Counted from the first letter of the stretch, positions 3,018-58,358 are shown. The stretch: 64,000 nt of DNA from Flectonema sp. DT1601 (GCA_964019425.1 OZ025797.1:1116001-1180000); one strand, 5' to 3'. Numbers and translations are program-made. The notes: generated by a model not told the origin, from the sequence alone.

Positions 3018-3840
3018 ACTTGTTTGTTATCTGAAGACATAATGTAACCAATACAAGGAACCAAAACACATTCTGGAGTTTCCCACCGCGTCTGCATCTT
3101 CTACCTATTCTGGGTCAGTTCTGCCCAAGCAGTTTCGAGATCGAATCTACTTACCCACCTCACGGTGTGCCATGCATCTTCTGGAGTACAAATAAGTAAT
3201 CACAAATATATTTATTTTATAGCACTACAGCTTGAAGCCTTCACTCGTCGTACAGACTTATGTGAGCCACAAATGCTGAGACCAAACCAGAGCGGGATGA
3301 TAATGCGGTTTAGTTGAAAATGGAAAGGAAAGGTATTACAAACTATCAATCACTTGTTCCACAGTAAGCATACAGTGGTCACAGTAGCCTGCTGATGTTA
3401 AATACAGCTACCACCTCATTGAGCTGGTCACTTCAGCGTAGTTACTTTCAAAATAAATAGAAAATAAAATAAGGGGGGAAAGGATGAGGAAGAGAATTGC
3501 CCGAAAACCAAACCACGTACTATGGACCTAATCACGTCTCCAAATATTTTGGCGGAAACTAAAAGTTAGAACAAGAGATCCAGAGTGCCCATAAAAAAAG
3601 AGAAAGGAAATAAAACACTTTTTTTTAATTTATAGAAACGAAATCCATGAAGGGAAGCATGGTGAGAGACACTCAGGTGTCTAGTTTAATTATTTATTTG
3701 AGAGATAAGGAATGATGAAACACTAAATCGATAAGAAGGTTATCTCACCTCAACAATATAATTAGTTTTCAATAAATTGAATCTAATTTGAAGACTTCGA
3801 ATAACAAAATGAATTAATCATCACACACCAAATCCTGGTT

Positions 3841-12229: not shown

Positions 12230-12339
12230 TGTTCTTAGTTTTGTCAGTATAAGTTTCCTGTAAAATGTAATAAATGGATATATGCAACGACAACGGACTT
12301 CATAGCCGGCAGAACCACATCAGAAAGTAGAAAGGAGAA

Positions 12340-14187
12340 CGTTTTCTTTATTTCTTATTTTGTCTTTTGGGTAAAGGTTGGATAGTCGTTGGTTTGCGGT
12401 AGGTAGTCTTCCAATCAGGACGCTTCTTGTCCTTCGTCGCTCAATACGGAGACGGTAGCCAAAGACCACTGGGTTACCGAGCTATGAAGCTCTACGGTCC
12501 TCAGAGAGTTATTAGGAGATGAATTAGGAGTGATGTATGAGTATGATATACTAAAAAGATAGTAACTTCTGATAACAGCTTGTTGCCGTCCATTGTTCTA
12601 AATGCCATACGAAGCCAGCGAGGGAATGTAAGTTCCTCGTAGCAAACATAAATGGCAGCTCTCAGGCCTCCGGTAGCATCAAGATATTGCCTAAACATCA
12701 CCCGTTTGATCGATGGTTTCGCCCTTGTTGAACCCTCCATAATCTTACCAAACAGCTTTCTGTTAGCTTCCCTCGCTATCCTTGACTTATATGCGAAGAA
12801 GTCCATAGTCGTTGACACCGGCTTGCTCTTAACATTTTTCGAAATCTTTTTCGCCAGTTCATCTGCCTTGTCATTCGGTTCAATTCCCACATGAGCTGGG
12901 ATGAATTGAAAGTGTACGAATGAGTCTAATTTTCTTATCCCTTCTAGTATCGAGAGAGAGTTCAGCTTCCTCTGAGCCGCAATTCCACCACGCAGCTCAT
13001 CCAGATTAGATTTAGAATCACTGAAGACTCTCGTGATTCCAGATCTGGGACCCAAGACAGAGGTTGCTTTTCCAAATTCACTTATTAACAGCTTCAGAGT
13101 TACCTGTTCAGCTTTATAACTACTTTCCGTTGCAACAAGTCTCGATGCCATGGTCCGTTCGCACGGCGTGATCTGCACTGCCGCTGCGCCTGCCGTGTAG
13201 TTGACAGGGTCGTGGGATCCGTCAACAAAAATAGACGAGGTACATGGCCTTAGTTCGCTGCAGTACTCCTCGAACTTAGCCTTGTCCACTTCAGCAACAC
13301 CAGTCTTTGAATGTCCATATCCGCAAGATATCTCCAGGTTCGGAACATCTATCCATGGCTCGATGCTGTCAGGCATGACAATCCCTTGGATCTTCATATT
13401 ACGGTCTTCAGCTGGTAAAGTGAACTCCAAGTTCCACTAGCAATTCTCTTCGTAAAAAGAACCCAATCCAGTGACCGATACCTGAATAAAGCAATTCTGG
13501 CTTGCTTCTCAATCTGCAGTCTCATCGGGAGTATGTTCGCCTCCCACAGTAACGGAAGGGACCTTGTGTTGAAGCCGCAGCCTGTGATTTTTCTAGCTAT
13601 CTTCCTCAGATTCAGGTCAATAGGTTTAAGTTGTTCATCTGTCAAGAAAGGTCCATAGCTCTCAAGCCCATACAGAATCCTTGAGAGGATGTATAAGTTC
13701 TTGATCATGTTCAGCATTTTGAAATCAAAGTTGAATTGCTCCAACTTTCGAAGCAGAACAAGTCCCTTCCTCGTCTCATCCAGTAGTTTATCCACTTGTG
13801 TACCATATTTCAGGTCATCGTCAATATGGACACCCAAGTACTTAACACTATCCACCATCGGCATGAGTACGGCAGTCAGCAACTTCACCCAGGTCGGATC
13901 CGGTCCCACTGGCATCAGTTCAAGAAGTTCACTTGCCTTCGTAACCTCAGTATCACCCAGCTTGAGGATCATCGCCCCGTTTCCAAGTAATGGCCTACCT
14001 TCTTCATTTGACCGAATCATCCCAGCCAGTTCCTCCCTACTGATCCGAAAGAAGTTCTCTCCTGACGTTCTGGGGAATCCCAGCCTCCAATACATATTCC
14101 TAGGACAGTCCACCGGCATCCCGCAGGTCTTCGAAACCGACAGTGCCATGTCATTATCTTTGCACCAACGATCTACTAACCCAAGGA
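12340..14187 (-). mobile_element. 5'-truncated, frameshifted ingi/I-like non-LTR retrotransposon (RT C-terminal half + RNase H)
   Basis: ORF 13394-14149 has KYLGVHIDDDL and RKIARKITGC..LLWEANILP. ORF 12501-13430 has RNase H motifs FVDGS, SYKAEQ, FSDSKS, FIPAHVGIEPNDKADELAK. Frameshift near 13400-13440. Boundaries approximate. Confidence 0.8.
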
Positions 14188-17100
14188 CTAACTGCAGATT
14201 TTGTCTGCTTCTTCGTTTCCGACAATGCCACAGTGAGAAAAGACATGCTGGAAAATAAACTTTGTTTTGAATTTATTGTTGAAAAATTCAATAAACTGCC
14301 AGATGCGGCTTCCTAGTCTCGTTTTCTGTTTTGTTCCCCCTTTTTCCAGTTCCATCAAGGCACTGGAGGAGTCTGACACAAATAAAACTGACGCATTTTC
14401 CGGCGGTTTAAATTCCTTAAAAAGTAAAACAAAAGCGTTTTTGATCGCCATCATTTCAGCCCTAAAAGAGGTGCAGATTATTCCTGCTTCACTTTTGTTT
14501 GTGAGAAATTCGTTTCCTTCGCTGTCTATGATGTACACACCAGCAGCACCGCGTTCTTCAACAACGGCACCATCGGTATATACCTCTAAGACTGGTTCAT
14601 AATCTTTCCTTATTTCATTAAGAACAGCTTCACAAGCTTTTTTATTTTTTTTTTTGTCTTTTTTTTTTCTAACATGCATTTCTGGTTTAAAAACATTGAA
14701 ATCATTTGAAAAACTCCATGGAGGATGAACGTAAATGGGATATTTCTTAAAACTGAGTGATAGAAGGTTGTGTTTTTTCAGAACATTCATTCCTAAACGA
14801 GTAAAAGAATCAATGGGTGTTGAGGATATTCTTTCAGGTGGAATAAAGACATTTAATAAAGGGGACGTGATTCGCGCCATTTTGGCGAACCATCTACCAG
14901 TTTCAAGTCTCAAATGGGTGTTGATACTTTGTTGTTGTGCCTCAAAAAAGATCTTATCTCTTGTTTCCCTTGTTGGTGGTAAGGCACCTAAAACATAGCA
15001 CGCACCCCTAAGGTGTAAAGAGAGAAGCCTGTCCATGTGAATCTTTTTATACCTAACTTCAGGATAAAAAGCTTCACACGAGTTTGTTATGACAGGTCGA
15101 ATATACAAATCATACACCTCACGCAAAGTTGCAGTACACTGTCCCCATGCTTTTGATGCGACAAGCTTCAGATACCTTAAGCGAAGATTAACTCTTCTAC
15201 AAATATACGAGATATGCTGTTTCCAATCGAGCTTGTTATCAAGGATCACCCCAAGAAGCTTGGCGCTATCAACACATGGAACAATATTTTTTGTTAAATT
15301 TGAAGTAAAAGTGAAAGGTGTTTGTAGTGGGGAATTTGGGGAGTAGGGATAATACACAAGTTTTGTTTTGTCAGGCTCATAACTTACTTTTAATTTTAAT
15401 TCGTTTAGATCCTTTTCAATCTCATTAAAGAAATATTTCGTTTTTGCCAAATGATAAGTAAAACCTTTCCCTTCATCATCAACTACAAAAGCAATATCAT
15501 CCGCATACTTAGCAACCGTAATATCTAGTCTCTCTGCTACTTTTTCAATATACAGAGTAAAAAGTAGAGCCGACAAAACTGTTCCTTGTGGAACACCAGA
15601 ATAAACATTGTGGTAAGAACCTTTTTCATTATTAACAACAACCGCTGCTCTTCGTTTTTTAAGAAAGGCCTGAATCCAGGCTATAAAATGTTTTGGTATT
15701 CCAAGATCTACCATCCTTTGAAGGAGAAGATCATGGTTCACACTATTAAAAGCTTTTTCTATATCAAGAAGAACAAGGGCCGCTGACTTTTTTTGGTGTT
15801 TAAGAAATCTAAGTCTGTCCGTAACATATAGGATGTTTTCCCGGCAGGAACGCGTTTTTCGATAAGAAGTTTGGTTGAAACCAATACCGTCAGTTTTCTT
15901 TTCATTCGGTGATTGCATAAAATACGTAAGACGTTCCTTCACCATTCTTTCCATCAATTTCGCAATAAAAGGGGTGAGAGAGATCATTCTATATGAAGAG
16001 GGGAGGTTTGGGGGTTTTCCTTTTTTTAAAACAGGGATCCAGTGTGTGTCTTTCCAATCACTCGGGACAACAGAATGTTTCCACGAATTGTTAAAAATCT
16101 TAAGTAAAATGTTTAGCATTCTAGGTCCCAAATGGTTAAGAAGAATACCTTGAACGCCATCTGGTGAATTCTTTTCCAGAGCCATTCCTCTCAATTGGAT
16201 TCTAAGTTCATGTTGTGTAAATGGTGTAAAATCAGAAGGGTCTGTTTCTATTTTCTTTGTCTTTGTTTTTTCTTCGATATTACCAACACGTTGTAAAAAT
16301 TGATTATTGAAAATTGATGCTTTTTCCACATCATCTGTAACAAGTTTATCACCACAGGTGATTTCTCGAATTTCTTTAAGCCTTGATCTGCCATCAAGGC
16401 CTCTTATGTCTTCAAAAGCTTCAATAATAGACTTGTCTTTTTTAAGGCTTTTTTTAAACTGTTGATTCTTGGCATCAACGACTGTTTTTTTGAGTTCTTT
16501 TTTAAAGATGTAAAAATTGACTTTCCCTGTTGCGACAGATCTGTAAGATCATCCCGTTGGTCACAATGTGACTCGTTGAACTCATGAAACTTAGATGCAA
16601 CCGTCGTGTTCCACCACTTCTTTGGTGACTTTCCTTTCAAATAAATCCTTGGTACAAAGATCCGTAGCGCATTTTTTAATTCTCTTATGAATTCCATTGA
16701 TAATTTCTGGTTATCTTGAATCTTTTCAAGTCGCTTCGCCACCCTTTCGAGGTGGGAGCTGTAGTTTGGCCACAGTGCCCTGTTCCAATTATAAGAAAAA
16801 ACCGTTGCACCGTTCGCTCTGTTTATCGAATCCGAAAAAAAAGAGAAAAATACATTGGTACATGATCGCTTGATAGAGATTCGAGCGTCGTCCAGTTGCC
16901 AATATCACAGTTTTTTTGGAGAACAACATCAGGAGAGGTGTTTGATTTTGGTCTTGTGGGGATTTCCTTAACGTTGCAGCATTCAAACTGGTTATTGTTT
17001 AGAAAAGTCGAGACTTCATGGCCATTTGTGTTTGACTCGTCTCTCGGGTCCCAGAGTGGATGCCTTGCGTTAAGATCCCCCGCGATAACTACTTTATCAT

Positions 17101-17745
17101 TTTTATTAAAAAGAAAAATACTATTCATATCAAAAGAGGGGGACCTATCAGAGGTTGATTGGCTTACCGGTGGTCTGTACACGTTGTATACCCTTACAGT
17201 TTGTTTTGAATTTGACACAAAAATGCCCTGGACTTCAGTGCAGTCTTGGCTGTGTTGTGCAACAGCGAATGCTGTCACGCTTAGGCTGTTCTTGTAAAAA
17301 ATTGCCAATCCACCACCTCTGACGGGTGCGTTTTTTTTTACCGGAATTCTCCGGTCTCTTCTGAGACACTTGTACCCATTAAAATTAATGGTTTCGTCGT
17401 TATCCTTTAACAAAGTTTCCTGAACCATGAAAAGGTCAGGTTTTATATTTTGTAAAAAAAAAGTTATTTCGTCGGATTTCGACTTGAGACCACAAACATT
17501 AAAAGATACAATTCTCAGTTCACTGTTTTTTTGCTTTTTTTGTGGACCGGGGTTCGGGTGAATGTCTCCACACAAAAGAAGGTTCGAGAAATAAAAAAGA
17601 TAAAAATCATAAAACAGTCAATTCGGAGGTTCTTCTTTTTTTCTTTTTGTGTTGTCATCACTATCGTTTTCTTTGTCCAGCTTCAGCTTCACAAGATCGA
17701 TGTCTTCGTCCATCGATCCTTGTTGAAAACCTTCTTTTTCTGCAG
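14188..17745 (-). mobile_element. Degenerate ingi/I-clade LINE: probable ORF1 tail, 2A-like peptide, APE endonuclease, RT, RNase H; truncated at both ends
   Basis: 16823-17575 APE (SFNVCGL, VQETLL, GGGLAI, NVYRPP, AGDLNARH, SDHVP). 14188-16329 RT (YRMISLT, LDIEKAFNSV, GVPQGTVLS, YADD, LLGVILD) and RNase H (YTDGA, RAEMMAI, SDSSSAL, HVFSHCGIVGNEEADK). Frameshifts between ~16330 and ~16850. Confidence 0.9.
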
Positions 17746-19600
17746 TGCCTCCAGCCATATGAATTGGACTACAAGACCCTAAAGATGGTTAAAAACTTGT
17801 ACGTAACAGCGAGGATTTCCTATGCACTGGACAGCTTTGGTTGGTTGCTCAACCAGCATAAAACAGATGCTATCGACTTCGAGATGAGAAAAATAGCGAG
17901 ACTCGTAACAGGATGCAGCAGATGTACTCCGAGGGAGTTGCTCCTTTGGGAAGCCGACATCTTACCGTTTAAAAGACAAATCGAAAAGCAGACTAAAATT
18001 GCCTATTTCAGGTACAAAGCCATGACCTGGGTGCCGGACACCAACTCACTCGCATCGCCTCGAAGCTTCTGGGGTGGCCTCATTCCCCGTTCTGAAGGTC
18101 AACTAGAAAGTGTGGGGATCGTTCAACCTGACTCTATCAAACCTTGGATTGCTTCGGACAATGTTCAAATCAGCAACAGCTGCGGTTTTACAAAATCCTC
18201 TGATCCCGCAGTGGACAGGGAGAAATTCCTTACCTACAACGCGACACTTCCTCCGGTGGATATGGTGATCAACTGTGACGGTTCATACTCTTCGAGTGCG
18301 TCAGGCGCGGCTCTCATTGCTAAGTCACGAGACGGAAAGAAACGTGCTCACGCGACCAGATTAGTGCGTGCGGATTGCAGCTACAGAACTGAGCAACATG
18401 CCTTGAAAAATGCGGCAAACTACTTAAACTGGAAGGTACAGAAAGACGGGTTAACTAAGTCAGTCAGAATCTATACCGACTCAAAATCATTGTTGGACGA
18501 GTTGAAGGGTGGCAGGTGTAAACAGAGAAACACCAGATCCCTCGGCATCCTCGAGAACCTACGGAACTGCGGTATGAAAGTACATCTTCAATTCATCCCT
18601 TCTCACATGGGGATAGAAGCACACGAGAACTTGCTAAGAAATCGGCTCACAACAGATACCTCCCTCAAATCCCAATCCGAGGATCCTTCTTCTATCACAA
18701 ATCCCGAGTGAGGAGGGGATCACGAAGGACATTAGGAACAGAATTGGTTACACCTGCTATAAAAACACCGTCAAAGGTGCCGCGATAAAATATCCTCCCG
18801 ACATGAAAAGGAGCGATGAAATCAGAATTGCGAATTTCAGAACGGGGTGTCATCCACTGATGCAAAACTGGCGGAAAGCCATCAAATGTCCATTCTGCCA
18901 TAGCGCTCCATCCAACCAACTCCACCTACTCGTAGGCTGTCATCACAGAAACTCGATGCAGCCAGATATGAAATCCTTGGCTTTTCTACATTGACAGGCA
19001 AATGGGACCGATCAAGTGATCTAATCCTCATCAACGGCATTCCTGCCAGTCTTGGCTCAATCTTTGCCACCAGCTGGCTTCCTTCAGTAGCGATGTTGAT
19101 CAGGTGGATGGAACAAGCATCCAACCTGAGACTTTGGAATTGTGTAGGTGACACGTAGTCGCCATTTAAGTGTTTTATCAATATTTAGTATTTTCATCAT
19201 TATCAATCATCTCCTGGTTGGGTAACTGCACATCACTTTCGGTGTTGTCGCAGTGTCTCATCCAACACTCCTGTCTCCTTCTTCTCCTTTAAATTTCTCT
19301 TGAGGGCAGGCCTTCGGGCTGTTCAAGTGGTCTTTGACCACCGCTCTAGTTATATGCTCGATTCTTTGTTTTCCTTATCGATGGTAGGAATGGTAACCGA
19401 ATTAGCTTCATGTGTCCAATTTCAAGGACGCGTGACCATTTATTTTTTTTCCGTTGCCGCTCTTCTTACGTCCTCAGGCGGAGCCTACCTATGTTTCCCG
19501 TGTTTTCCAATTGTCAGACTTAAATCAAAAGAAAGTATAAAAGAAAGACAAAACAAAGAAGTGAAAAGAACAAAAACAAAGTGTTTGGTAGCACAGACGA
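17746..19600 (+). mobile_element. 5'-truncated, frameshifted ingi/I-like LINE 3' part (RT thumb, RNase H, CCHC knuckle, 3' UTR); related to the 12340-14187 element
   Basis: KNLYVTARISYALDSFG..RKIARLVTGC..LLWEADILP aligns with the 13394-14149 protein. RNase H CDGS/YTDSKS/FIPSHMGIE. CPFCHSAPSNQLHLLVGC at ~18885-18940. A-rich end ~19525-19620. Confidence 0.8.
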
Positions 19601-20055
19601 GTGTAACCAAAAAAAGAAAAGTTTTTTTTATTTATTTTTTTTTTTTTTTTTTTTTGAGGGAGGTGAGAGGCAAGTATGGCAGGAGAGCAAACCCTCGGAA
19701 CCAGCGATCCTTATGTTACATGAGTGTGCGCTAAAAAGATAAACTGCAACACAAGTTTTGGGCCGGTTTTCTAGGTCCTACCATATCTGTCGCCGAAGCG
19801 AAGAAAAGAAAAAGGAAAAAAAAAAACAATATTTGTGGTTGTGTTTGCGCTGATGGTTGCACTCCCACTTCCAGCGTGTTTTTTCTTTCTTCTTACATTT
19901 ACATACAGTTTACATACAACTCTGTCTTCCTTTTCACTCTTCTTTTTTTTTTTTTTTTCATTTTTCTTTTAACATGTTTGCTTCTTTACATTTTTTACAA
20001 GTTCACTTCTTTACATTTAATTTTTTCCGTTCATTCACTTTCCGTTTCATGCTTC

Positions 20056-23000
20056 TCACATGGCATCGTTTTTCGATCGCGATCCCCGTGATTTCCTTTT
20101 CCTCTTCTCTTTCCCACGCCGCGATCTCTCCAACAATCCGCAGCATTCAGCGTAGTCACACTTCACGCACATGACTACCCGCGTTCCCTTCGCGATCCGC
20201 TCTCCACACCTATCACACCATCCCTTCGTCGGGTGTTTCACCGGATTCTTGATCGCTGCTTGCGGTATCTCCTTTCCGCACCCACACATCCCTACTGGGG
20301 GGCGGTCTTCTTGTGTCGGTGGGGAGCAGATCGAGCTCGAGTCTGACGTCATCTTGTCTGAGTCATGGTCCATGGTAGGCTCCGTGGTGGTTTCAGGCAC
20401 AATATTTTTCTCGTGTGTGCTTGTTACCGCCTGTGAGACTTCCTTACCGTTCTCCTCCTTCCACTTTAACAATCTCCTCCCGACTTTTTCCTCACCTCTC
20501 ACCCATCGGTAGGCCTCTTCGCTGGCTTCGGGGGGCAGGCGCTCCAGCCTCAGCGTTGATCCAAGTCGATGCGCCATTCTCTGCGAGACCTCGATGTATC
20601 GTCGGTGTGACTCTACTGAGTGCTCGAGTGAGCCGTACGCCACTATTTCCTTCACTGCGTCTCCGTAACTTAGCAGCTGCGCCATCCCGATCCCTAACGC
20701 CTTACCCTCGCGGTTCGGCGAGCATTCCTTGAGGGGGAATCTCCACATGTGGATCACTTCACCGCCACTTACAACACACGTTCTCGTCTCCCTCTGTGTT
20801 GCTGCGTAGAACAGTTCATAGATGGGCTTTTCAGAGTGCCATTCTATGAGCTCGATCTTCGCCCTCTTCTTCGAATCTCTAAAAGCCGCTTCCGGTTCCG
20901 ACTGTCCTCGCACTCCCTCCTCAGGCTCATGGATCGCACTTGGGCGCCATCCTATTCGGGGCTCACGTCCATGGTGGGGATCTGCCGATCCTTCCTTCGG
21001 CTCCTCGACTGGTTCCGCTGGCTTCGGTTTCTGTTCTACCTCTGTTTCGCCTGTCATCACTTGGCACACCCACTGGTAAGCTGTGTGCTTTACTTCGACA
21101 GGTAGGTCCGCCAGCCTCAACACTAGTCCTCGTGCCCTTACCACGCTACTTATCGCCCCGAATTTCTCCCACCGTTCTCTCGTCCACTGTTCCAAGGGTG
21201 CGTATGCTTGCACTTCCACGGGTCCCTCCAGGAGGCCCTTCCCTGTGACCCATTCCAGTGCCAATTCTAGTGCGGCCAGCATGGGGTCTTTTTCCTCTCC
21301 TGTGGTCTCATGCCACTTCTTCATCACTGGTCCTCCGCCACTCCGCACCAGGCACGCCCTTCCGGTTTTGCCTAAGAAAAGGTACACAGCTGGATGTGGT
21401 GGTGTTGGCTGCGTTAACCCTTTCGTGGCTCTGTGCTCTTCGACGTACTCCCGTGCTCTCCTGTCCGTGCAAAGCTTCTTCACCTTCCCACCTGGACAGC
21501 GTAGCACTTGCAGTGAGGCTTCACTCCATGTGCTGTACGTTCCTGGACGCCGTCCACACGGGACCGCGTACCGCCGATTTCTGCGTGGGCCTTTTACTGG
21601 CTTGTCTGCTGTCTTATACTCTGGGTCAGTGCTTCTCAGGAAAGCCTCCGCCTCCTCTCCATTATTGAAGCCCTGATAAACAGCGCAAGAGAGTCCCTTC
21701 GTCTGTTTCTCGGCCTCTGCCCAGCTATTCACGATGGTAGTGCGTCCCCTTCCCTTCGAGATAGCATAGAGCTTGAACTTGCTCTCCATTCGCGTCGCCG
21801 GTTGACTCCTCTGGCCTTTCGTTGTGTGTGCTCGTATTGTGACACGCGTGGCGTTCTTCTTCTCGCACCGACCTAGTGTCTTCACCGTCCTTAGCAGGTT
21901 CGGTGGGTTTTGGGTCCGTGTTGATTGTGGTACTTCACACTGTGTCCGTGACTTTTGCGTTCCAGGCCGTATGAGCATTTCACTGTTCACTTGCCTATAA
22001 TCCCTTCCTTCCATTCCGTGCTGCTCTGGGGGCGTTACCCTGACCACCTGTGGAGCTAGTCGTGGCATCATCGGAACTTCATTTGCGCAGAACATCTCCT
22101 TTGTAGCTTGTCTTCGCAGGAATAGCACGTAAGGGACAGACGACAGCACCTCTCGCCAGCTTGTTGCTCGCTCCACCTCATCGTCCTGGTACCTCCAGCC
22201 GCCCGGTGATAGGGTGAAAGACGTGTAGTGACCCGATCCCAGACACCCCTGATGGACCACCACAGCGGACACCCTATAGTCGGCCTGTATCTTGCTGTTC
22301 CGCATCGACACTTGTTCTCCCAGCGCCATTTTCGTGGCATTCTCGTTCACAATGCATACGATCATCGTTTCCGGCGCCTCCATCAAGATCCTGCGCTCCT
22401 GCAAAGACCCCGTACCGCACAGTCCGCACACGTAGTCCTGTGGTATCGTCGTCGACTCCAGTGCCGACTGTAGGTCCCATCCCCGCAGTATCAGGCCGCA
22501 GTCCAGCTCGATTGATTGGCTCCCTCCGCCACAGCATATGCACGTGCGTTCTACTGCCACCATGCATGTGAAAGCGTTTGCTAAGAGGTCGCCTGGTCTT
22601 GCTCTTTCCTGCAGGTCCGACACTATGTGTAGTAGGGCTCCGTGGGCGTCCTGTTGTCCTCTTCCCATCCATTCTCTTGTGATCCTCGTTATCTCTCCTT
22701 GCGACCCACCTCCCTGCACCAGTGCTAGTGCGCACACTGTGCACCTCGTCCCGCATACGTGAGGGGTGTTCCGTGCCCGCTGGAAATCCACATGCGACCC
22801 CTTCAGTAGTGCCTGCAAGGTGGCGTTCAGGTAACACGAGTCTCCGAGGTTCGTCAGGCCCTCCATCCAGGTGGTCCGCGTCTGGATATTCGTCCCACCC
22901 CCTTGGCTCTGCGGTTCGGTGACGTCCGGGCCTCTGCTACCAAGACACGGGGCCGCTGGCGCTACCCGCGTGCAGAAAAGGTTTGATTCCGGTTCACAGT

Positions 23001-26000
23001 CCTCCATGAGTATATCACCCCCTTCATCCATTCCATACGCTAGCGGCTCGCTCGTTTCGGCAATCTCCCCTGTAACTTCCTCCATTAGTTCCTGGGAGTT
23101 CGCCCCTTCCTGGCTCTCATAGTTCTCCATCTGTACATCAGCTTCTCCGTCTGTTCCACGCGCTGTCGGTTCGTCATATCCCTCGCGGTCTTCCTCCCGA
23201 GCGTTTGCTTCCTGTGGTACCAGTGGCTCCCTCTTTTGTTGGGCCTCCTCTGGGTCTTGCTCTCCTTCCCACGGTGCTGTCTCCCACGTGGTCGGTCCTG
23301 TTGCGTAAAAGCCCAGTTTTAGACCTTGCTCCCTAGACGTCTTAGGTTCTGTCGGCTCCCTTCTGCTCTTCTGTGGGGCTGCTCCTTCTGAAACCAATCC
23401 ATTCGCTTGCGTCTGTGCGCCCTCTGTCGGTTTCACAAGTGCATGCGGTTCTCCCTGCTCGGGATCACGCAACGGCTGCGTAGGCGTCCGCACGTCCTGG
23501 CTTGGTGTTGAAATAGACACCGGTGGTGAAAGGTTCCTCGCCGGCAGGTTCGACTCTTCTTTTACCGCAGGCGGCGCCTCCGGTTCTTTCGACCGCTCGG
23601 CTACTTTCACCGGGACCTGTAGCAAATCCTGTCCTGTTTCTTGTAGTTTTAATACGGACTGCTGGGGAGCCGGCGGTGCCTGTCGTCTATCCTGGTCCTC
23701 CGGTTGCTTTGACAGCGTCAATGGCACCGCACTCAGTCCCTGTGGCATCCGCTCGACATTTTCGTGGGGTTTCACAGGCGGCGGTTCCGATAGCGACAGG
23801 GATGTGTCCGAGTAATTCCCTCCTGCGTGCGATCCTGTCCCCGCCGACGGTTCGGTGACGTCTTTCGTCTGGTCGCTCCCGTCCATTCGCATTGGTTCCG
23901 TTGTTGAGCCTTCTGCCCGCTCTGGACTCCGCGCCTCAGACTTGAGCAGCTGGGGCGGCGGCGGCGCCTGTTGCCCACCGTCCCCTTCGGAGCGGTTAGT
24001 TTGTACTGGTGGCGCTTCCTTCGTCTCCTGCGTCAGCTTCGCAATGTCTCCGTTTGATGCTGGCTCCAAAGTCTCGACATTTCCGTGGGGTTTCACAGGC
24101 GGCGGTTCCGATAGCGACAGGGATGTGTCCGAGTAATTCCCTCCTGCGTGCAATCCTATCCCCGCCGACGGTTCGGTGACGTCTTTAGTCTGGTCGCTCC
24201 CGTCCATTCGCATTGGTTCCGTTGTTGAGCCTTCTGCCCGCTCTGGACTCCGCGCCTCAGACTTGAGCAGCTGGGGCGGCGGCAGCGCCTGCTGCCCACC
24301 GTCCCCTTTGGAGCGGTTAGTTTGTACTGGTGGCTCTTCCTTCGTCTCTTGCGTCAGTTTCGCAATGTCTCCGTTTGATGCTGGCTCCAAAGGTTTCGGC
24401 TCCGACGGGGATGGTGGTTGCTCTGCCCTCGGCTTTTCCACATGCAGAACTGGCTCTTCCCTCCTTTCTACCACCGCCTCCTTCGCTACTTGTGTTTTTT
24501 GGTCAAAGTACCGCCGCCTCGCTCGTCCCGATTTATCGTCCATTGGGCGTGGCTTCAGTGCTCGGCTTGTCCGCATGCGGTGGTCTATGGAGAGGAGCTT
24601 CTCACTTAACAGACCCTCCGTTCCTTCGATTCTCGTATACACCCAATAAAGCGGCCCCGTGCCTGGTCCTTCTTTGCTCCGCACCCGTTCGTCGCTCACA
24701 CATGCCCATCGGTTCCTCGGCGTTCTTACCATTGTCATTGCATGTCTCCCATTGCCACATACACTCCCCGTTAAAACATAACTGCGTGGCCCGCTTTCAG
24801 TCTCTACCTGAAAGGCGGCCCTCGTCGTCTGTTCCACTCTCTCCTTCGCGAACAGGATCGGCGGCATCTCGGCGAATCTCCACTGCACAGTGCAGTCTCT
24901 GTTTGGCGATCTACACCTCTCGCAGATCGTTGGACTCTTCGTCTCTTCTTCGAGCGGCCCTCCTAAGAGGATGATCTTTGCTGTCTCCGGCTTGGTCTTT
25001 GGGTCCAAGACCATGAAACTCAGCTGCACCTCCTGCCTCACAAACCCACATACACACCTGTGTGTCGCTTTCAATCTGGATTCGAACAGGCTCCTCAGAG
25101 TCCCCCCCCACACCGCGCATTCCTTCAGTGCCAGGTTATTTAGGATCTGTTTAAGGAAAGCCAATGGCGAACCTCCTGCCAAAGAATACCTTGTTATCTC
25201 CTTCCTGACCGTGTCCGCCGTGAAGTCCTGGATCGTGACTCGTGTCTCCTCCATTAACCCGTCCAGTCTTGGGTGGTCTTCTTTAGACATCTTCCACAGT
25301 ACACAGGCGAGACATCCCCCTACGCACGTTTTATCCGCCGTTTCTTTCTCTCTCATCAACCCTATTAGTGGTGTGGCCCATATTAGGCTGCAGACTGTTG
25401 CTGCGGCGTAGCACGTCCCTCTCGTGTTCTCAAATCCCCTCACATCCGATGTGGCCCACTTGTCATCTTGTTTTCCCGACGCCTCGTAGGACAATAACGG
25501 CCGCTTCGTGATGTCTAGGTCCGCCATATCTCGCTCTAGCTGGGCCATCACATCTCTGCCATGTCCTTTGAACCTTGGAACACTTCCTGGCTTGCCTTCC
25601 GAAACTACCAGCTTCACCACCGGGGCGCCCGGCAACCGTCCTGTCTCTTTCGTCGTGGGTCCCGGTCCCTCAGCTCGTGAAGGCTCCGTGATTGCGTTCC
25701 CTCGGTCCGGAGTTGGTCCCTCCGCCGGCGTCCTCCCTCCGACTCCAGATTCCTCAGTTGACGGTTCCTCCGTTCGTGCCTCCCCCGGCTCCCCTGCCCC
25801 TCCGTGAGTCTGCTCCAGTTCCTTCGGCTCCTGCAGGGTGGACCTCGTCCCGCTTTCCGGGGCTTGCACCTCCCTCTGGTTGCCTGCCTTCTGTGTGCTA
25901 TCTCTTGCAGCTTGGCCAATCTCCGGCGCAGCGTCCGGTCCGGTAGTCCTTCCCACACTCCGGTCGGCCTCCGACAGTAACCGCCCCGATTCGTCTGGCC

Positions 26001-29000
26001 CCTCCCCGATGCTCCCCATCTTGTCGACCAGGTCTTGTATCTCGTCTTCCCACTCATCCTCCTTGAATATCGGGGGTAGATCCGTACTGATAGGTGCTCC
26101 GTCGCCCCCCATCAGCAACTCCCCCCTATCTTCGACCGCTCTCGCCCAGCTATACGCTAGCGTTGTTGATATCTCTTTCGACAGTGCCCTCCACGCCTCT
26201 GCCGGTCTCCGTGTCCTCAGAGAAATCGCCTTGATGAAGGCCGCAGCTGCCTCATTCATGGCCCCGTCGCGCGTGAAGACTAGAGGAACGAAAGCTATTC
26301 CCTTCGAGCTACACTCCTCCCCGTATTTCTTCACCTTTTCCCTCTCCTTCGCCTGGATGACCCGCCTCGCATCCAAGTGCGATCCCCGGGACAGACTTGT
26401 CTGCGAGCATACCTCGATGACCGTCACGTCGTACGCCGCCGGTCTTCCTGTCCAGTTTCGTGTCGTTCCCGGCACTGCCTCGCTTACCAGGATGTCGGCC
26501 GGTTTCCTCCCTCCATCTAGGATTCGTTGCGGCTCCATTTCCACGGACATCCCCGTCACCCTTGCCTGCTTCGCCAGGAAATCCCTGACTAGGTTATGGC
26601 GTATGGTTGGCGTTGCCCCCCGGTTACACATCCCTGCGTGCACCCCCCGAGGGTCTAGCTTAGCGTTGCACCTCTTGCATAGCTGTCCCGCCTGTAAGAC
26701 CTCCAGCCCTAAATGCGCCCTGATCGCGGTCCGGAAAATTTGTGACGGCATCACGGTTCCCGTGTCGCTTGCCTCCGCCAACCACGCACTCGCCCTCGGC
26801 ATGGACACCGCTCTGAAGTGTGCAAGTCTTTCTCGGTCTCCGCTCCCCTTCAGGTCGTTGACCATCTTCGTTTTCAGCGAGGCGTCGATCTTCATTGACA
26901 GCTCTCTCTGTCGCACTACCTTATCGAGGTCCAGGTCGCACTCCTCCGAGGTCTCCAGCGTCAGCGCTTTACACACCCCACTCCACTCCTCAGGGTCGAC
27001 TTGGTATTGGGCGTCCAGCTCCACGCACAGTTTCCTCGTCGCAGTGGCCGACGCTGCTCTGCCCGCCGCCGCGTGTCTCCCACAGTTTCGCAGGCCCACC
27101 CCCCCTTCCCGCAAAGGTAGCTCCGCCTGTAAGTGCGCCCGCTCATCCATATCCCCACCCACGAGACCCCGCAACACGCTTCTCACTACCGCATCGAAAT
27201 CTGCCAGACCTGATCGCTGGTCCTCCAGGTACATTGACCTCATCAAGTATACCATCTTCCCATACGAATGGCAGTATCGTAGCTGGGTCAGCGCTACGTG
27301 CCGATCCGGTAGCATCGTCAGTGACTCGCTTACTTTCTTCAGCTTCGTCACGTACTGCAGCAGGTATTCCTTGCAGTAGCTCCCACTCCCTACCGGTAGC
27401 TTGAGAATGGTGAAGTTTCCCTCGGACTCTTGTTTCACCTTCTCCAAGCCCCCCTTCGGTTCCAGGCCCACCCGCAGAGGTACGAATACGCACTTCGCCT
27501 CCTTTACCTTTAGCCCCAGGCTTGATGCCTTTTGAACCAGGTAGTCGTACGCCTTCGCTAGTTCGTCTACGCCTCCCATCAACACTCCATCGTCTAAGAA
27601 CCAGAGGCTTCCATCCAGTCCCATCTTCTTGAGTCCCTCCAGTAGGCTTTTTATCCCGAGTGAGAAAAGGAGAGGCCCCGCCGGATCCCCCTGTTGGGCC
27701 CCCTCCCTCGACGGAATCGTGGTATCCTCAAAAAAGAGGCTCGTCGGTCTCTCGTAACACCACGATGCCAAAGGCAACAGTTCCGGCAGCGTGGACGCCA
27801 GCTCACGCAGGAACACCGCCCTCGAGACACAGTTAAAAGCGTTCTCAAAATCAATGGTCAGGATTGCCTTGTTGGCCCCCCTGTTCCTCCTCGCGTAGTC
27901 CCGTACTATTGCGTACACCGCCTCCACCCCACTGGGTACCGCCACCCCCAGCTGTCCTCCTGGCTTTAAGAGGTTTGGTATCTTGGGCCTTATTTTTGCT
28001 AGCACTATCTTCCACGCCCACCTCCGCAGTGATTCCCCTACTGCTATTGGTCTATACCCGGTCGGCTCTTTCTTCAGCGCGATCAGGCGAGCTCCTGCCA
28101 ACACCGGTGCCGCCTCATAAGGTACTTTCCCTCTTACCAGTAGCTCTAATGTAGTGCAGAGCGTTGGCATCAACCCTCGCAGTCCCGTGTCGCACGCTTG
28201 CTTCAGGAGCTCCACGCTTAATCCCGACGGTCCGGCCCCCGTGTCCTTCGGGAATGTCTTCAGCGATGCTAGTGCTTCCTCCGGCGACACTACTGTGTTC
28301 CCCGTTCTCACCCCCTCCAGGTCTATCTTCTCGTGCATGGGACTCGGGTGGATGGTCTGCATCGCCGCCAGGACTTCCGGCGCGTTCGGCGCTAGCCCGC
28401 TCGACACCAGGCATTTATTAGCCTGCGCGTACCTCCCTCTCCTGCTCAGGGCGCAGCACCGCTCATACCGTTCTCCCTGTGTCGTTTCCTTCTCCCGTCG
28501 TCTTTTGTTCCTCTTTGCCCTCGTGCTCCACATCGCTACATACTCTCCCCTCAGCCATCCTTCCAGCCTGCTCGTCAGCCTCTCCCTATGCGTCTCTGTC
28601 CCCTTCTCATCCTTCCGCACCGCCGGCGTTCCCAGGCATGCTTTCGGGAGCATCAATAGCAGCTTCCATGCCCGCGGGTCATTCCGCTGTGCTATCCGTT
28701 GCAATGTTGCCATGAGAGCTCTCGCCCACAACATCGTCAGCCTCTCGTCCAACTTTTTTGGCACCACTACCTGTGCCGCCCCTATCTCCTCCCACGACGG
28801 CAGCTCTCCAAGCTCTTTTTCGTCTGGCCACGGGGCGTTCTGAACCTCTTCCTCCCCCCCATCTAGCGCCATGGCTTCTCTACATCTCGGGTGGACCCCG
28901 GTGCTGCTTCCCGTCAGACACCCACACATCGTGCATGGTCGCACCCCCATCGCCTGCTGCTCCGCCTCCGTGAGAGGGCGATCTGACAGGAGGTGCTCCT

Positions 29001-32000
29001 TGTTCAAGTGGCCTAATAGTCCTCCCCAGTTCTTATATCCCTCAAATCGCTGGGCGCGTGATCGCGAGCATTCTCCCCTGGGGCAGTAGTAAGGCCCAGA
29101 CCCCCTCAGTCCCGCGCTTGGTCCCGTCCCCAGGCCTATCCTCACCGCAGCCTCTTCAGCCGTTTGTTCGGAGAGCTTCAGCACATACACCGCCTCGGCT
29201 CTCTCCTCCACCCGATTGAGCATTTCGGCGTCCGCTTGGAGCACTGCCTCGTAGTGTTCTTTATCCAGCACTATCCACAGCGGGATGTCCTCAGTCCTTC
29301 TCAGGGGCAGCATCTTTAGGAGTCTCCCCGCCTCCCACACTATGATCACTACTCCCATCTGGTCCGCCGCAACCTGCAGCGCTACGTTGTCCCCCCATCC
29401 CTTGTTCTCCAGTCGTACAGCGTAGTCCTCCTTGGCCAGTCCGTTGACGAACCATTGGTCCGTCCTCTCTTCACCTCTCATGTATTCCGCGAGTCTCTTC
29501 CGCAGCACCCTCGCACCCACTCGCCGATTCCATTCTCCCTTCGCCAGTAGGATTGCTCGGAACATACAGTCCCCATCCCCCTTAGTCTTGGTTACACTGA
29601 CTCTCGGGAACTCCCTCTGTAGCTCTATGGACGTGCTTGGCGTTGCTTCCCCCTCCACCTCTCTGGAGCTGCTCAACTTCCTACACCTTGGGTGCATACT
29701 GGCCGTCCCCTTCATTGCTCGTCCGCAGTGTCCGCACGCCTTCATGCCGCAGTCAGCCCACTGGTCCTGTCCCAATTGACCTTTATGCTTCCCATCTATG
29801 TGTGCCAGCAGGCCATTCTCCGTCCCAGACCACTCACACACTGGGCAGCTCGCACCCCCACCTCTCATCTCGTGGGGTTGCTGCTTGCAACTGCTTCTCG
29901 GCTTTGACGTCGACTGTTCATCTTCCGGCGCTCTCTCTTCCTTTGTTCGTCCCCCACTTTTCGTTTTCCGGGCCTTTTCCCGCTTCTTCTCTTGTTTCTT
30001 GTGCCATCGCGCTGGTGGACTCAGTCTCCACCTGTCGCTCGCCCGGTTTGGCCCCCTCACCTGTTGCGTGATTTCTTCCTGATACCTCTCGGTCTCATTC
30101 GTTCCCGCGCAACCCACTAGCTTTGGCTGGGGGAATAACCATATCGTGGGCTCCAGTTTTTGACATGCTAAAGACGGTAATATTCCTGTTGCCATATGTG
30201 TCCCTAGACCCGGCATATCCCTGAGTATCTCTAATTCCAACATGGCCCGCCACCTCTTTGTATACTCCTGTTCGTGTGCCATTGTCGTGTTCATCCCAGG
30301 CCCCCGCGTTGATGCCGTCTCCCTCCCTGCCCCTAGTGTGCGGTTTGTCTTCGACTGGCTGTGCCCCCTCCTCGTGTACGACACGAGCGTGGGTTCTCTA
30401 GGCCCCGTCTCCGCACACCTCCTCGGGGCTGCCCCTTCGCCAAACACATTGTGTCTACTCCTCGAGTACGGCACCAACGCGAGTGCTCCAGGCCCAGCCT
30501 CCGCACAGCCCACCGGAGCCGCCCCTTCGCCAATCACGTTGTGTCCACTCCCCGAGTACGACACTGTGAGTGCTCCAGGCCCAGCCTCCGCACAGCTCCC
30601 CGGAGCTGTCCCTTCGCCAAACACCTTGTGTCTACTCCCCGAGTACAACACCGTGAATGCTCCGGGCCCAGCCTCCGCATAGCTCACCGGAGCTGTCCCT
30701 TCGCCAAACACGTCGTGTCTACCCCCCGAGTACAACACCGTGAGTGCTCCAGGCCCAGCCTCCGCACAGCTCCCCGGAGCTGTCCCTTCGCCAAACACCT
30801 TGTGTCTACCCCCCGAGTACAACACCGTGAATGCTCCGGGCCCAGCCTCCGCATAGCTCACCGGAACTGTCCCTTCGCCAAACACCTTGTGTCTACCCCC
30901 CGAGTACAACACCGTGAGTGCTCCAGGCCCAGCCTCCGCACAGCTCCCCGGAGCTGTCCCTTCGCCAAACACCTTGTGTCCACTCCCCGAGTACGACACC
31001 GTGAATGCTCCAGGCCCAGCCTCCGCGTAGCTCACTGGAGCTGTCCCTTCGCCAAACACGTCGTGTCCACTCCCCGAGTACGACACTGTGAGTGCTCCAG
31101 GCCCAGCCTCCGCGTAGCTCCCCGGAGCTGTCCCTTCGCCAAACACATTATGTCCACTCCTCGAGTGCGACACCGTGAATGCTCCAGGCCCAGCCTCCGC
31201 GTAGCTCACTGGAGCTGTCCCTTCGCCAAACACGTCGTGTCCACTCCCCGAGTACGACACTGTGAGTGCTCCAGGCCCAGCCTCCGCGTAGCTCCCCGGA
31301 GCTGTCCCTTCGCCAAACACATTATGTCCACTCCTCGAGTGCGACACCGTGAGTGCTCCAGGCCCAGCCTCCGCATAGCTCACCGGAGCTGTCCCTTCGC
31401 CAAACACCTTGTGTCCACTCCCCGAGTACGACACCGTGAGTGCTCCAGGCCCAGCCTCCGCGTAGCTCCCCGGAGCTGTCCCTTCGCCAAACACCTTGTG
31501 TCCACTCCCCGAGTACGACACCGTGAATGCTCCAGGCCCAGCCTCCGCGTAGCTCACTGGAGCTGTCCCTTCGCCAAACACGTCGTGTCCACTCCCCGAG
31601 TACGACACTGTGAGTGCTCCAGGCCCAGCCTCCGCGTAGCTCCCCGGAGCTGTCCCTTCGCCAAACACATTATGTCCACTCCTCGAGTGCGACACCGTGA
31701 GTGCTCCAGGCCCAGCCTCCGCATAGCTCACCGGAGCTGTCCCTTCGCCAAACACATTATGTCCACTCCTCGAGTGCGACACCGTGAATGCTCCAGGCCC
31801 AGCCTCCGCGTAGCTCACTGGAGCTGTCCCTTCGCCAAACACATTATGTCCACTCCTCGAGTGCGACACCGTGAGTGCTCCAGGCCCAGCCTCCGCGTAG
31901 CTCACTGGAGCTGTCCCTTCGCCAAACACGTCGTGTCCACTCCCCGAGTACGACACTGTGAGTGCTCCAGGCCCAGCCTCCGCATAGCTCACCGGAGCTG

Positions 32001-54850: not shown

Positions 54851-55289
54851 TTTATCAAAAAAGATTAAAGTTTAAGTAAGTTCAATGAGGATTAAGCAAA
54901 ATTTGCTAAGGAAAGGAATTAATGTTTTAATTAATAATGTACTGATACAGAATAACATCTCAAACATAGCGATCACTTATGCAACGAGAGCTAAAAGATC
55001 GATATAGACATTTCTAATCCAAAGACTAGGGTGCAGAGTGCATTTCAGCTAAGGGAGGACCTTTTTCATTTTTCCGTTCCGTTAGGACAGAAAAGTAATA
55101 AGTATAGAATAATTTTCGACGTACCAAAAATAAAAAATTATAAAAGATTAAACAAGGTTATCATTGCTTTTTTTTTTTATCGATCGACTTTGTCGACTAA
55201 TTTCTATTTTCCGTCCTGGTCAAGACGCTAAACTGATTGTTTTTTTTTAAAAAAATTAATAAAATGAGGCGATTGGCAGGTGGAGGTGT

Positions 55290-55580
55290 TCACGATTTTT
55301 CACTTTGCTACACGAAAATTCACGATTTTTCACGATTTTTCACGATTTTTCACAATTTTTCACTTAATTTTTTGCTGCTTTCTGGTAGTGAAATCCCGTG
55401 AAAATGTGTGAAAATGTGTGAAAATGTGTGAATTCTAGTGAAAAAAGTGAGTGATATCCAGATGGTACCGTTGCATACTTGTGCAAAAAGCTAAAGCTAA
55501 AGCTAAGCTTTTTAGAGCTAAGCTAAAGCTATTTAGCTTTTTTTAGCTTTTTTTAGCTTTTTTTTAGCTTTTTTGAAAAA
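55290..55580. repeat. Short tandem/inverted repeats (TTCACGATTT vs GTGAAAATGT; AAAGCT vs AGCTTT)
   Basis: 10-bp units 55310-55365 with an inverted counterpart at 55398-55445; AAGCTA/TAGCTT arrays 55487-55575. Resembles DNA-transposon subterminal repeats. Confidence 0.6.
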
Positions 55581-56059
55581 AAAATTTCAAACAAAAAATA
55601 CCTCATTTTTGGACATTTTTGGTATTTTTTTGGAATTTTTTTAGAAAAAAAATGGAAAGTTGTTGAAAATAAAGCAGTGGAAAATTGAGAAACTGGCACT
55701 GTGGAGCTTGAAAGCATTTTTTTTGAATTTTTTGAAAAAAAATTTATTCTCTCAGAATGTAAAAAAAAAAAAAAAAAATTACTTGAAGGGGTGTAAAAAA
55801 AATTTTTTTTAATTAAAAAAGCTAGTAACCAGTCTTGTTTGGGTTTTTTTGGGGTCTTTTGGTATATTAGCAGCTAAATCTGTGAACAGAGCAAGGATAT
55901 AAGGCAAGAGGTGTCAAAACTGCATAAATCCAAATTTCCCCTCCTTAATTTACCCCCCCCAGGTTCTTAAAAAATGTCTTACAAAGTTCCCTGTCAAACT
56001 ACAGTAACTTAACCTGTTGCAATGTGTTTTTTTTCTCCTTTCAGATCCATCTCTCCTAC

Positions 56060-58320: not shown

Positions 58321-58358
<38 letters not shown>

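What the first reader, a model, noticed from the sequence alone, without database searches (positions are those of the whole stretch)
20056..34248. Giant 4730-aa single-ORF RLE retrotransposon protein with three deubiquitinase-like domains
Seen: a CRE-type RT-CCHC-RLE core has an OTU domain upstream (GDGDCMF..W..HY) and two USP/peptidase C19-like domains downstream. One has near-canonical Cys/QQDA/His/Asp boxes (~22100-22860); the other is divergent (~24650-25440). The 14.2-kb frame is uninterrupted. Established: some RLE elements carry a single cysteine protease (e.g. Ulp1-like in NeSL), and the RLE is normally near the C-terminus. Inference: about 2000 aa of accessory domains after the RLE, with OTU plus two USPs, is exceptional. 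It may counter ubiquitin-based host restriction, modify chromatin at target sites, or process the polyprotein.
Basis: partly seen in the sequence, partly recalled or inferred. Interest (0 to 1): 0.85.

Follow-up and report, generated by a model that had tools for sequence, protein, structure and literature searches.

The report
Giant deubiquitinase-armed retrotransposon wearing spliced leader
A young, multi-copy jumping gene in what is likely a diplonemid-type flagellate encodes one 4,730-residue protein with three ubiquitin-protease-type domains around its copying core, likely cuts itself at a conserved ubiquitin-like site, and begins with the host's mRNA leader, so this copy was likely made from a fully processed message.

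Summary
Confirmed. The minus strand holds an unbroken 4,730-codon ORF: 29-aa repeats, OTU, zinc fingers, RT, CCHC-RLE, a divergent USP and a canonical USP. There are 26 near-identical proteins on at least 12 contigs. It is not a one-off: its RT falls in a well-supported 11-tip clade (98.5/98) that holds every OTU/USP carrier found (0 of 172 outside), including a 3,379-aa Diplonema papillatum OTU-RT-RLE-USP protein annotated only as SLACS. Two new points. (1) A ubiquitin-tail-like Gly-Gly motif lies just before the OTU in all 5 members with enough upstream sequence, which points to polyprotein cleavage. (2) The element starts with a whole 39-nt euglenozoan spliced leader joined exactly at the AG acceptor of a 288-bp tandem monomer, with poly(A) and a candidate 7-bp target duplication, and no SL gene around it. 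The 18.6-kb copy was therefore probably reverse-transcribed from trans-spliced mRNA. Protease activity and targets are untested. New variant of CRE/SLACS; I found no description in print.

The parts
38348..38429 (+). Host tRNA-Ser(AGA) gene, head to head with the element's 5' end, 64 bp away (flank, not part of the element)
38284..38290 (-). Candidate target-site duplication, 5' copy (7 bp)
   Evidence: matches 19629-19635
38245..38283 (-). Complete 39-nt euglenozoan spliced-leader exon, the 5' end of this copy
   Evidence: 37 of 39 identical to SL 'Euglenozoa 14' in PMC3795323 Table 1; the exact 39-mer heads SL RNA genes in metagenome loci
34908..38244 (-). 11.6 identical 288-bp monomers, each with a pyrimidine tract and AG acceptor; the SL is joined at that AG in the first monomer; no ATG
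34249..34907 (-). Unique 5' UTR, no ATG, with a strong second acceptor (first base after AG at 34483) and long T and A runs
20056..34248 (-). Single 4,730-aa ORF (P0001)
32848..34248 (-). N-terminal 467 aa, no family match; 1 difference in the second full-length copy P0008
30360..32852 (-). 28.6 in-frame 87-bp (29-aa) repeats; P0008 is 116 aa, four units, shorter
29857..29877 (-). Conserved Pro-x-x-(Leu/Met)-x-Gly-Gly motif, aa 1458-1464; predicted cleavage site after G1464
29680..29847 (-). First zinc-finger pair (C1468, C1471, H1483, H1488; C1505, C1508, H1519, C1522)
   Evidence: sequence; weak zf-Di19 hit
29233..29598 (-). OTU cysteine protease, aa 1551-1672 (C1561, H1665)
28882..29085 (-). 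Second zinc-finger pair (C1722, C1727, H1747, H1752; C1772, C1775, H1786, C1789), shared with relatives
27049..28281 (-). Reverse transcriptase, aa about 1990-2400 (D2133, D2219, D2220)
26149..26679 (-). CCHC knuckle (C2524, C2527, H2537, C2541) and restriction-like endonuclease (P2583, D2585, D2607, K2638), aa 2524-2700
   Evidence: alignment; SLACS/CRE consensus in PMC12857005
24625..25443 (-). Divergent USP/C19-like domain, aa 2936-3208 (C2946, H3169, S3185)
23752..24392 (-). In-frame 321-bp duplication inside a low-complexity linker
22108..22866 (-). Canonical USP/C19 domain, aa 3795-4047 (C3805, H4007, D4022)
21436..21774 (-). Two RNase H1-type RNA:DNA hybrid-binding domains (Cauli_VI), aa 4159-4271
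21049..21423 (-). RNase H-like fold 1, aa 4276-4400, no acidic residue on the first strand, likely inactive
20464..20838 (-). RNase H-like fold 2, aa 4471-4595, 25% identical to fold 1
20140..20217 (-). C-terminal Cys-rich finger, aa 4678-4703 (ZZ-like spacing, label recalled); similar fingers follow the post-RLE OTU in relatives
19636..20055 (-). 400-nt 3' UTR and 20-nt poly(A) (19636-19655)
19629..19635 (-). Candidate target-site duplication, 3' copy

Best explanation
This is a recently active CRE/SLACS-type non-LTR retrotransposon of a euglenozoan (likely diplonemid) host whose single 4,730-aa polyprotein is likely cut by its own OTU protease at a ubiquitin-tail-like Gly-Gly site, and whose two USP domains would travel with the reverse transcriptase to strip ubiquitin from it and from host proteins during insertion. 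Steps. (1) SHOWN: an 18.6-kb unit of SL exon, 288-bp array, 5' UTR, ORF, 3' UTR and poly(A), not inside an SL gene. (2) INFERRED, strongly: the element is transcribed from outside or from the array and trans-spliced at a monomer's AG, which caps it like any host mRNA and frees it from the polycistronic precursor; the RT copies it to the leader's first base. Each round uses up one acceptor, so the array serves as a reserve of 5' ends. (3) INFERRED: cleavage after G1464 separates a 1,464-aa repeat-rich part from a 3,266-aa enzyme, replacing an ORF1/ORF2 split. (4) INFERRED from the family: zinc fingers and RLE nick the target and the RT primes on it. (5) INFERRED, weakest: the hybrid-binding and dead RNase H folds hold the RNA:DNA intermediate, and the USPs protect the complex from proteasomal removal or damp ubiquitin signalling at the break.
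For: Domains and intact active-site residues. RT clade support 0.997 in FastTree (183 tips) and 98.5/98 in IQ-TREE (54 tips); 8 of 11 tips carry OTU or USP, 0 of 172 outside. Catalytic Cys and His are kept in 6 of 6 pre-RT OTUs and 5 of 7 post-RLE OTUs at about 40% RT identity. The Gly-Gly motif occurs once per protein, 27-122 aa before the OTU, in 5 of 5 members with upstream sequence, and the sixth begins at it; 1 of 38 outside proteins with a long N-terminus has it there. The SL is whole and joined exactly after the monomer's AG, the first AG behind the main pyrimidine tract. No 12-base piece of the SL occurs elsewhere in the window. Viral papain-like and OTU-cluster proteases that both process polyproteins and deubiquitinate are described in PMC10318531 (passages).
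Against: No activity, expression or cleavage was observed. The Gly-Gly pattern was defined after seeing these sequences, and relatives share it by descent, so the shuffle probabilities overstate the case; a host deubiquitinase could equally cut it. The divergent USP is below Pfam's cut-off, lacks the middle box, and its fold model failed (pLDDT 34). Two of 7 post-RLE OTUs have lost the catalytic residues, and the OTU/USP profiles were built from clade members, which biases the 0 of 172. Copies are too alike to test selection. Some short members are probably frameshift pieces, not 5' truncations (P0010 and P0013 share a contig length). The 5' anatomy, the 7-bp duplication and the tRNA neighbour rest on one copy; the duplication is short and A/T-rich. 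The hybrid-binding and RNase H-like domains were not found in any of 150 relatives.
Confidence: 0.6

Rival explanations
1. The proteases serve mainly as anti-host deubiquitinases (protein stability, DNA-damage or antiviral signalling); the Gly-Gly site is cut by a host enzyme or not at all.
For: USPs normally act on ubiquitin conjugates (established knowledge). The same slot after the RLE is filled by OTU in some lineages and USP in others, and the three USPs are barely alignable to each other (19% at best), which suggests repeated capture of one activity. PMC2836005 proposes a ubiquitin-pathway role for OTU, Ulp1 and C19 domains on DNA transposases (passages).
Against: The Gly-Gly motif sits next to the OTU in every OTU-bearing member and is rare outside the clade.
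Confidence: 0.25
2. The SL is the remnant of an SL RNA gene target, as for trypanosomatid SLACS/CZAR/CRE, not the mark of trans-splicing.
For: SLACS and CZAR insert between SL bases 11 and 12 (PMC5814959), so a duplication leaves SL exon at the 5' junction. SL genes with this exact exon lie among tRNA genes in 13 of 43 loci, and a tRNA is 64 bp away here.
Against: No SL bases 12-39 and no SL intron follow the element anywhere in the window. The junction respects both the SL exon end and the monomer's acceptor to the base. The candidate duplication lies outside the SL.
Confidence: 0.1
3. SL plus array plus the A-rich stretch at 34259-34385 is a separate retroposed non-coding unit, or a host-type 5' repeat expansion, lying in front of the ORF.
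For: A long A-rich tract lies just before the ATG. D. papillatum has tandem copies of 5' UTR plus intergenic DNA upstream of dozens of ordinary genes (PMC10161547).
Against: The 7 bases beside the SL recur right after the poly(A) beyond the ORF, and only 1 of 83 A-runs in the window is followed by that 6-mer. The monomers are 100% identical, as young as the ORF copies.
Confidence: 0.12
4. The tail after the RLE is passively captured cargo with no role in transposition.
For: Long low-complexity linkers, a fresh internal duplication, degenerate USP and RNase H copies; 3' transduction is common in non-LTR elements (PMC6431247).
Against: 2,030 codons stay in frame. Independent lineages keep intact post-RLE proteases and a similar Cys finger. 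A longer RNA raises the cost of 5' truncation.
Confidence: 0.08

Closest known systems
CRE clade of trypanosomatids (SLACS, CZAR, CRE1, CRE2)
   Same: Single ORF, N-terminal zinc fingers, RT, CCHC-RLE, internal repeat regions, poly(A) (PMC12278014 passages); RLE motif order as in the SLACS/CRE consensus (PMC12857005); an SL at the 5' junction.
   Different: 4,730 aa with 2,030 aa after the RLE; OTU, two USPs, hybrid-binding and RNase H-like domains (the word 'protease' does not occur in PMC12278014's main text); not inserted in an SL gene; SL joined at an internal acceptor.
Diplonema papillatum 'SLACS 132 kDa protein' models, e.g. KAJ9439003.1 (P0202, 3,379 aa)
   Same: Same RT clade, OTU-ZF-RT-RLE-linker-USP, Gly-Gly motif before the OTU.
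   Different: One USP, only 19% alignable to the canonical USP here; no Cauli_VI hit; RT 40% identical. PMC10161547 names SLACS only as an annotation class (passages).
NeSL and Utopia-1_TSP (Ulp1 protease); Dualen/RandI (Josephin); a Symbiodinium ORF2p with N-terminal OTU
   Same: Non-LTR elements with a ubiquitin-family cysteine protease upstream of the RT (PMC4640811; PMC13405545).
   Different: One protease, N-terminal, other clades; no USP and nothing reported after the endonuclease.
Ginger1, Helentron and Mutator transposases with OTU or Ulp1; a Trichomonas transposase with peptidase C19
   Same: Mobile-element proteins fused to deubiquitinase-type domains (PMC2836005; PMC6431247).
   Different: DNA transposons; Ginger1 carries OTU or Ulp1, never both.
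Burro LTR retrotransposon (4,873-aa polyprotein)
   Same: Similar size and ubiquitin-related cargo (PMC6431247), so this is not the longest retrotransposon ORF.
   Different: LTR class, other domains.
L1Tc/ingi Pr77 system
   Same: Solves 5'-end definition in a polycistronic, trans-splicing host.
   Different: [quoted passage not shown]

Membership tests
CRE clade non-LTR retrotransposon | Single ORF with non-LTR RT | tested here: met
CRE clade non-LTR retrotransposon | CCHC knuckle plus SLACS/CRE-type RLE motif series | tested here: met
   All consensus residues present in order; spacings off by one at three places and 7 longer before the last Asp
CRE clade non-LTR retrotransposon | N-terminal C2H2-type fingers, internal repeats, 3' poly(A) | tested here: met
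CRE clade non-LTR retrotransposon | RT groups with reference CRE1/CRE2/SLACS/CZAR against NeSL, R2, R4, HERO | tested here: inconclusive
   No reference sequences were among the hits; the tree shows only grouping with D. papillatum proteins that NCBI names after SLACS
CRE clade non-LTR retrotransposon | RLE close to the C-terminus (usual state) | tested here: not met
   2,030 aa follow; 24 of 144 RLE-bearing proteins checked have more than 200 aa after it, mostly this clade
SL-gene-specific SLACS/CZAR/CRE1/CRE2 | Insertion between SL bases 11 and 12 with SL sequence resuming at the 3' end | tested here: not met
   No 12-base SL piece elsewhere in the window
SL-gene-specific SLACS/CZAR/CRE1/CRE2 | Target-site duplication | tested here: inconclusive
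   7-bp A/T-rich candidate from one copy
OTU protease (PF02338) | Profile match above cut-off with Asp/Cys box, Trp-Gly motif and His | tested here: met
USP / peptidase C19 (aa 3795-4047) | Profile match above cut-off; Cys, Gln-Asp, His and Asp boxes | tested here: met
USP / peptidase C19 (aa 2936-3208) | Profile match above cut-off; all boxes | tested here: inconclusive
   Below cut-off; Atlas 0.96 to USP clusters; Cys and His present, middle box lost, Ser at the third position; fold model failed
Deubiquitinases (all three domains) | Cleavage of ubiquitin substrates | not testable with these tools
   needs biochemistry
RNase H | RNase H-like fold | tested here: inconclusive
   Model of aa 4276-4400, pLDDT 67, RNase H strand and helix order; best Z 8.0 (Argonaute, rmsd 3.8, 123 aligned), 7.9 (integrase core, rmsd 2.8, 97), 7.0 (archaeal RNase HI, rmsd 3.9, 108): middling
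RNase H | Acidic catalytic residue on the first strand | tested here: not met
   Predicted strand 1 of fold 1 has no Asp or Glu
tRNA-upstream-targeting elements (TRE5-like, recalled) | Many copies at a fixed distance upstream of tRNA genes | not testable with these tools
   One copy at 64 bp; no genome held

The most novel reading that the evidence does not exclude
An undescribed subclade of giant euglenozoan CRE elements behaves like an RNA virus: one polyprotein that cuts itself at a ubiquitin-mimic Gly-Gly site with its OTU and carries interchangeable OTU or USP deubiquitinases against the host. It has left SL genes and instead takes its capped 5' end from host trans-splicing at a tandem reserve of acceptors, possibly landing just upstream of tRNA genes.
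Probability: 0.4. Interest if true: 0.88.

Novelty: new variant of a known kind. Interest (0 to 1): 0.75.

Why it matters
Ubiquitin-family proteases have been seen on many mobile elements, but what they cut is an open question. Here a conserved candidate substrate site sits beside the OTU, so the question can be tested with a 300-residue fragment. USP domains and proteases after the RLE were not found in the papers I could search. The SL-headed copy offers a third way for a non-LTR element to define its 5' end in a polycistronic host, besides ribozymes and SL-gene targeting. An RT that copies an 18.6-kb message to its first base is also a candidate source of SL-tagged retrocopies.

Tried and rejected
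No genome is held for the window, and no sequencing run was listed, so flanks of other copies, dN/dS and expression were out of reach; read laying was not used. Single-sequence fold of the divergent USP failed (pLDDT 34) and was not searched. Foldseek on 'pdb' was busy twice. The Atlas gave only leads below 0.9 for the RNase H-like region. The Glyco_hydro_11 and FLYWCH hits fall on the Gly-rich repeats with no passing stretch: rejected. Giant-virus origin of the USP: the Atlas's nearest clusters are Nucleocytoviricota minimal USPs, but single-protein scans of viral contigs found no relative of the USP or RT and the records were not held; left open. A homologue search among proteins of 2,601-8,278 aa returned only the element's own cluster and missed the 3,379-aa D. 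papillatum protein, so that blank is not evidence of uniqueness. The tail search found one 81%-identical 175-aa piece. No 2A-like tail in the ORF. The strict four-residue ubiquitin-tail motif is not enriched overall (3 observed, 1.2 expected); only the positioned motif is. Rfam has no family for the SL or array. No long target duplication: exact matches stop at 10 A-rich bases. Repeat units vary at all codon positions (65/45/68), with no clear sign of protein-level constraint. Earlier-finding look-ups by place, words and sequence were empty for this element.

Full report
OBSERVATION. The minus strand carries one stop-free frame from 34248 to 20056, 4,730 aa; 200 shuffles give at most 273 aa. 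It is G+C-rich (58%) against 41-47% for four neighbouring host genes. Order of parts: 467 unique residues; 28.6 repeats of 29 aa; a zinc-finger pair; OTU (Pfam above cut-off; weak matches to nairovirus OTU structures); a second finger pair; RT; CCHC-RLE ending near aa 2700; a divergent USP (Pfam below cut-off, Atlas 0.96); a linker with a 321-bp duplication; a canonical USP whose Cys and His boxes align with USP15; two RNase H1 hybrid-binding domains; two related 125-aa domains with an RNase H-like fold of middling score and no first-strand acid; and a Cys finger.

IT IS A YOUNG MOBILE FAMILY. The protein's 90% cluster has 26 members; 15 were listed, on 12 distinct contig lengths. Of the 14 others, one is full length (4,614 aa, four repeat units shorter), 10 end at the same C-terminus and 2 span the RT; differences outside the repeats are under about 1%. 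This 3' excess fits target-primed reverse transcription and shows that the USP tail is copied with the element. Some pieces are probably frameshift products, and the copies are too alike to test selection.

IT BELONGS TO A CLADE. The RT-RLE search returned 150 best representatives of 13,571 hits. Cluster look-ups for 10 of them revealed longer members, among them D. papillatum proteins named 'SLACS 132 kDa protein' of up to 3,379 aa; that one reads OTU-RT-RLE-USP. Others read OTU-RT-RLE-OTU. Of 265 proteins, 196 had a near-full RT and 183 remained after I dropped cluster mates. The query falls in an 11-tip clade (FastTree 0.997; IQ-TREE 98.5/98 on 54 tips). Eight of the 11 carry OTU or USP, one a degenerate OTU, two are fragments; 0 of 172 outside do, though the profiles were built from clade members. 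A Pfam scan of 33 long relatives found no OTU or UCH outside the clade but did find Ulp1 in two outside proteins. Catalytic Cys and His survive in 6 of 6 pre-RT and 5 of 7 post-RLE OTUs at about 40% RT identity. The three USPs hardly align with each other, so they are old or separate captures, not a recent duplication. Trypanosomatid reference elements were not in the set, so CRE membership rests on the RLE consensus and NCBI's names.

A CANDIDATE CLEAVAGE SITE. Each OTU-bearing member with upstream sequence (5 of 5) has one Pro-x-x-(Leu/Met)-x-Gly-Gly motif 27-122 aa before the OTU and nowhere else in the protein; the sixth protein starts at the motif's last four residues. In-window shuffles give 0.002-0.015 per protein; 1 of 38 outside proteins with a long N-terminus has the motif before the RT. 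The pattern was chosen after seeing the data and is inherited, so these figures overstate it. That it resembles the ubiquitin C-terminus is recalled knowledge. Viral proteases that both process polyproteins and deubiquitinate are described in PMC10318531 (passages). I infer cleavage after G1464.

THE 5' END. Upstream of the ORF lie 659 unique bases and 11.6 identical 288-bp monomers. The array begins with 39 bases that differ at 2 positions from a listed euglenozoan SL exon (PMC3795323 Table 1). The exact 39-mer occurs 45 times in 43 metagenome loci; 31 are followed by GT, mostly with an SL-type intron, and 13 loci hold tRNA genes, several with U1, U4, U5, U6, 5S or SRP genes (Rfam run on 20 of the 43). 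So it is a true SL exon. D. papillatum's SL exon is also 39 nt (PMC10161547 section 10). The host is a euglenozoan, likely a diplonemid; long intron-free host ORFs nearly all on one strand fit. In the window the SL is followed not by GT but by the base that, in the 11 inner monomers, follows a pyrimidine tract and AG. That AG ranks second of 21 by pyrimidine content and is the first behind the tract. No 12-base piece of the SL recurs in the window, so this is not an insertion at bases 11/12 of an SL gene, the SLACS/CZAR rule (PMC5814959). The 7 bases before the SL recur right after a 20-base poly(A) 400 nt past the stop; 1 of 83 A-runs in the window is followed by that 6-mer. This gives an 18,648-bp element (38283-19636). 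The simplest reading is a full-length copy of a trans-spliced mRNA. A stronger acceptor 235 nt before the ATG could give a shorter message for translation only (inference). A tRNA-Ser gene lies head to head 64 bp away; one case cannot show targeting.

MECHANISM. Transcription into the element; trans-splicing at a monomer; translation; OTU cleavage releasing a 3,266-aa enzyme; RLE nick and RT copying through the leader; USPs and hybrid-binding domains protecting the complex and its intermediate. The anatomy is shown; trans-splicing is strongly inferred (about 0.8); self-cleavage is inferred (about 0.6); the targets of the USPs are a guess.

LITERATURE. Single N-terminal proteases are known: Ulp1 in NeSL and Utopia-1_TSP (PMC4640811, passages), Josephin in Dualen and an OTU in a Symbiodinium ORF2p (PMC13405545, passages); OTU, Ulp1 and C19 occur on DNA transposases (PMC2836005, passages). 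Burro's ORF is longer (PMC6431247, passages). PMC12278014 (passages) describes trypanosomatid CRE without proteases; PMC10161547 (passages, section 10, supplement search) names SLACS only as an annotation. PMC12857005, PMC5814959, PMC3795323, PMC5601477, PMC9940879, PMC6338049 and PMC10318531 were seen as passages. Searches returned no description of a CRE element with USP domains, proteases after the RLE, or an SL joined at an internal acceptor. Repbase and subscription journals were not searchable, and the supplement search of PMC10161547 returned no SL text, so its Additional file 1 may hold relevant repeat analysis that I did not see.

VERDICT. Real, and a new variant of a known kind: an extreme member of an apparently undescribed deubiquitinase-carrying CRE/SLACS subclade, with a testable cleavage site and an unusual 5' end.

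Noticed in passing
L044-L047 (one 238-kb IMG/VR contig) and L004, L005, L009, L010, L016, L017, L021-L023, L030, L033, L039, L041, L042: The same 39-nt SL stands in DNA directly before a short 5' UTR in 14 metagenome matches and 4 times in one large viral contig, where ORFs of 186 aa or more follow. All 18 have a giant-virus early-promoter-like motif (label recalled) ending 18-19 nt upstream, against 0 of 30 GT-followed matches. This suggests a giant virus of this host group that encodes the host leader. One paper search found nothing; earlier scan notes report the same for other leaders.
   Followed up: partly
L006, L007, L012, L014, L020, L024, L029, L031, L034, L035, L040: SL RNA genes with this exon sit in compact clusters of many tRNAs with U1, U4, U5, U6, 5S and SRP genes, unlike the SL-5S-U2 repeat described for D. 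papillatum.
   Followed up: partly
window 12501-18711: Broken APE-RT-RNase H elements next to the 3' end: APE (16823-17617), RT plus RNase H (14188-16548), further RNase H pieces, and an oppositely oriented related piece at 17503-18711.
   Followed up: partly
window 4880-12319 (-): Intron-free 2,479-aa frame with an SF1 helicase (AAA_11/AAA_12) followed by three AAA modules; a possible defence-related NTPase.
   Followed up: no
window 141-3026 (-): Ferric reductase/NADPH oxidase-type frame with an N-terminal region of several coding tandem repeats (21, 33, 42, 54 bp).
   Followed up: no
window 55169-62280 and 62773-64000: Nested A/T-rich inverted repeats of 80-211 nt around a zf-BED/DUF659 frame, and a MULE-SWIM transposase at the window end; likely DNA transposons and MITEs.
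   Followed up: no
window 38488-38600 and 38750-38800: Short palindromic repeat family just beyond the tRNA gene; the Rfam miRNA matches there are far below their cut-offs.
   Followed up: no
P0031, P0033, P0027; P0053, P0057; P0108, P0154: Other CRE-like proteins outside the clade carry MLLE (poly(A)-binding protein C-terminal), Prim-Pol or Ulp1 domains.
   Followed up: no
window 30360-32852 against P0174 aa 720-731 and P0204 aa 365-375: The 29-aa repeat unit contains a five-residue stretch like the one preceding the Gly-Gly motif in two relatives; the array may be an amplified, degenerate cleavage-site region.
   Followed up: no
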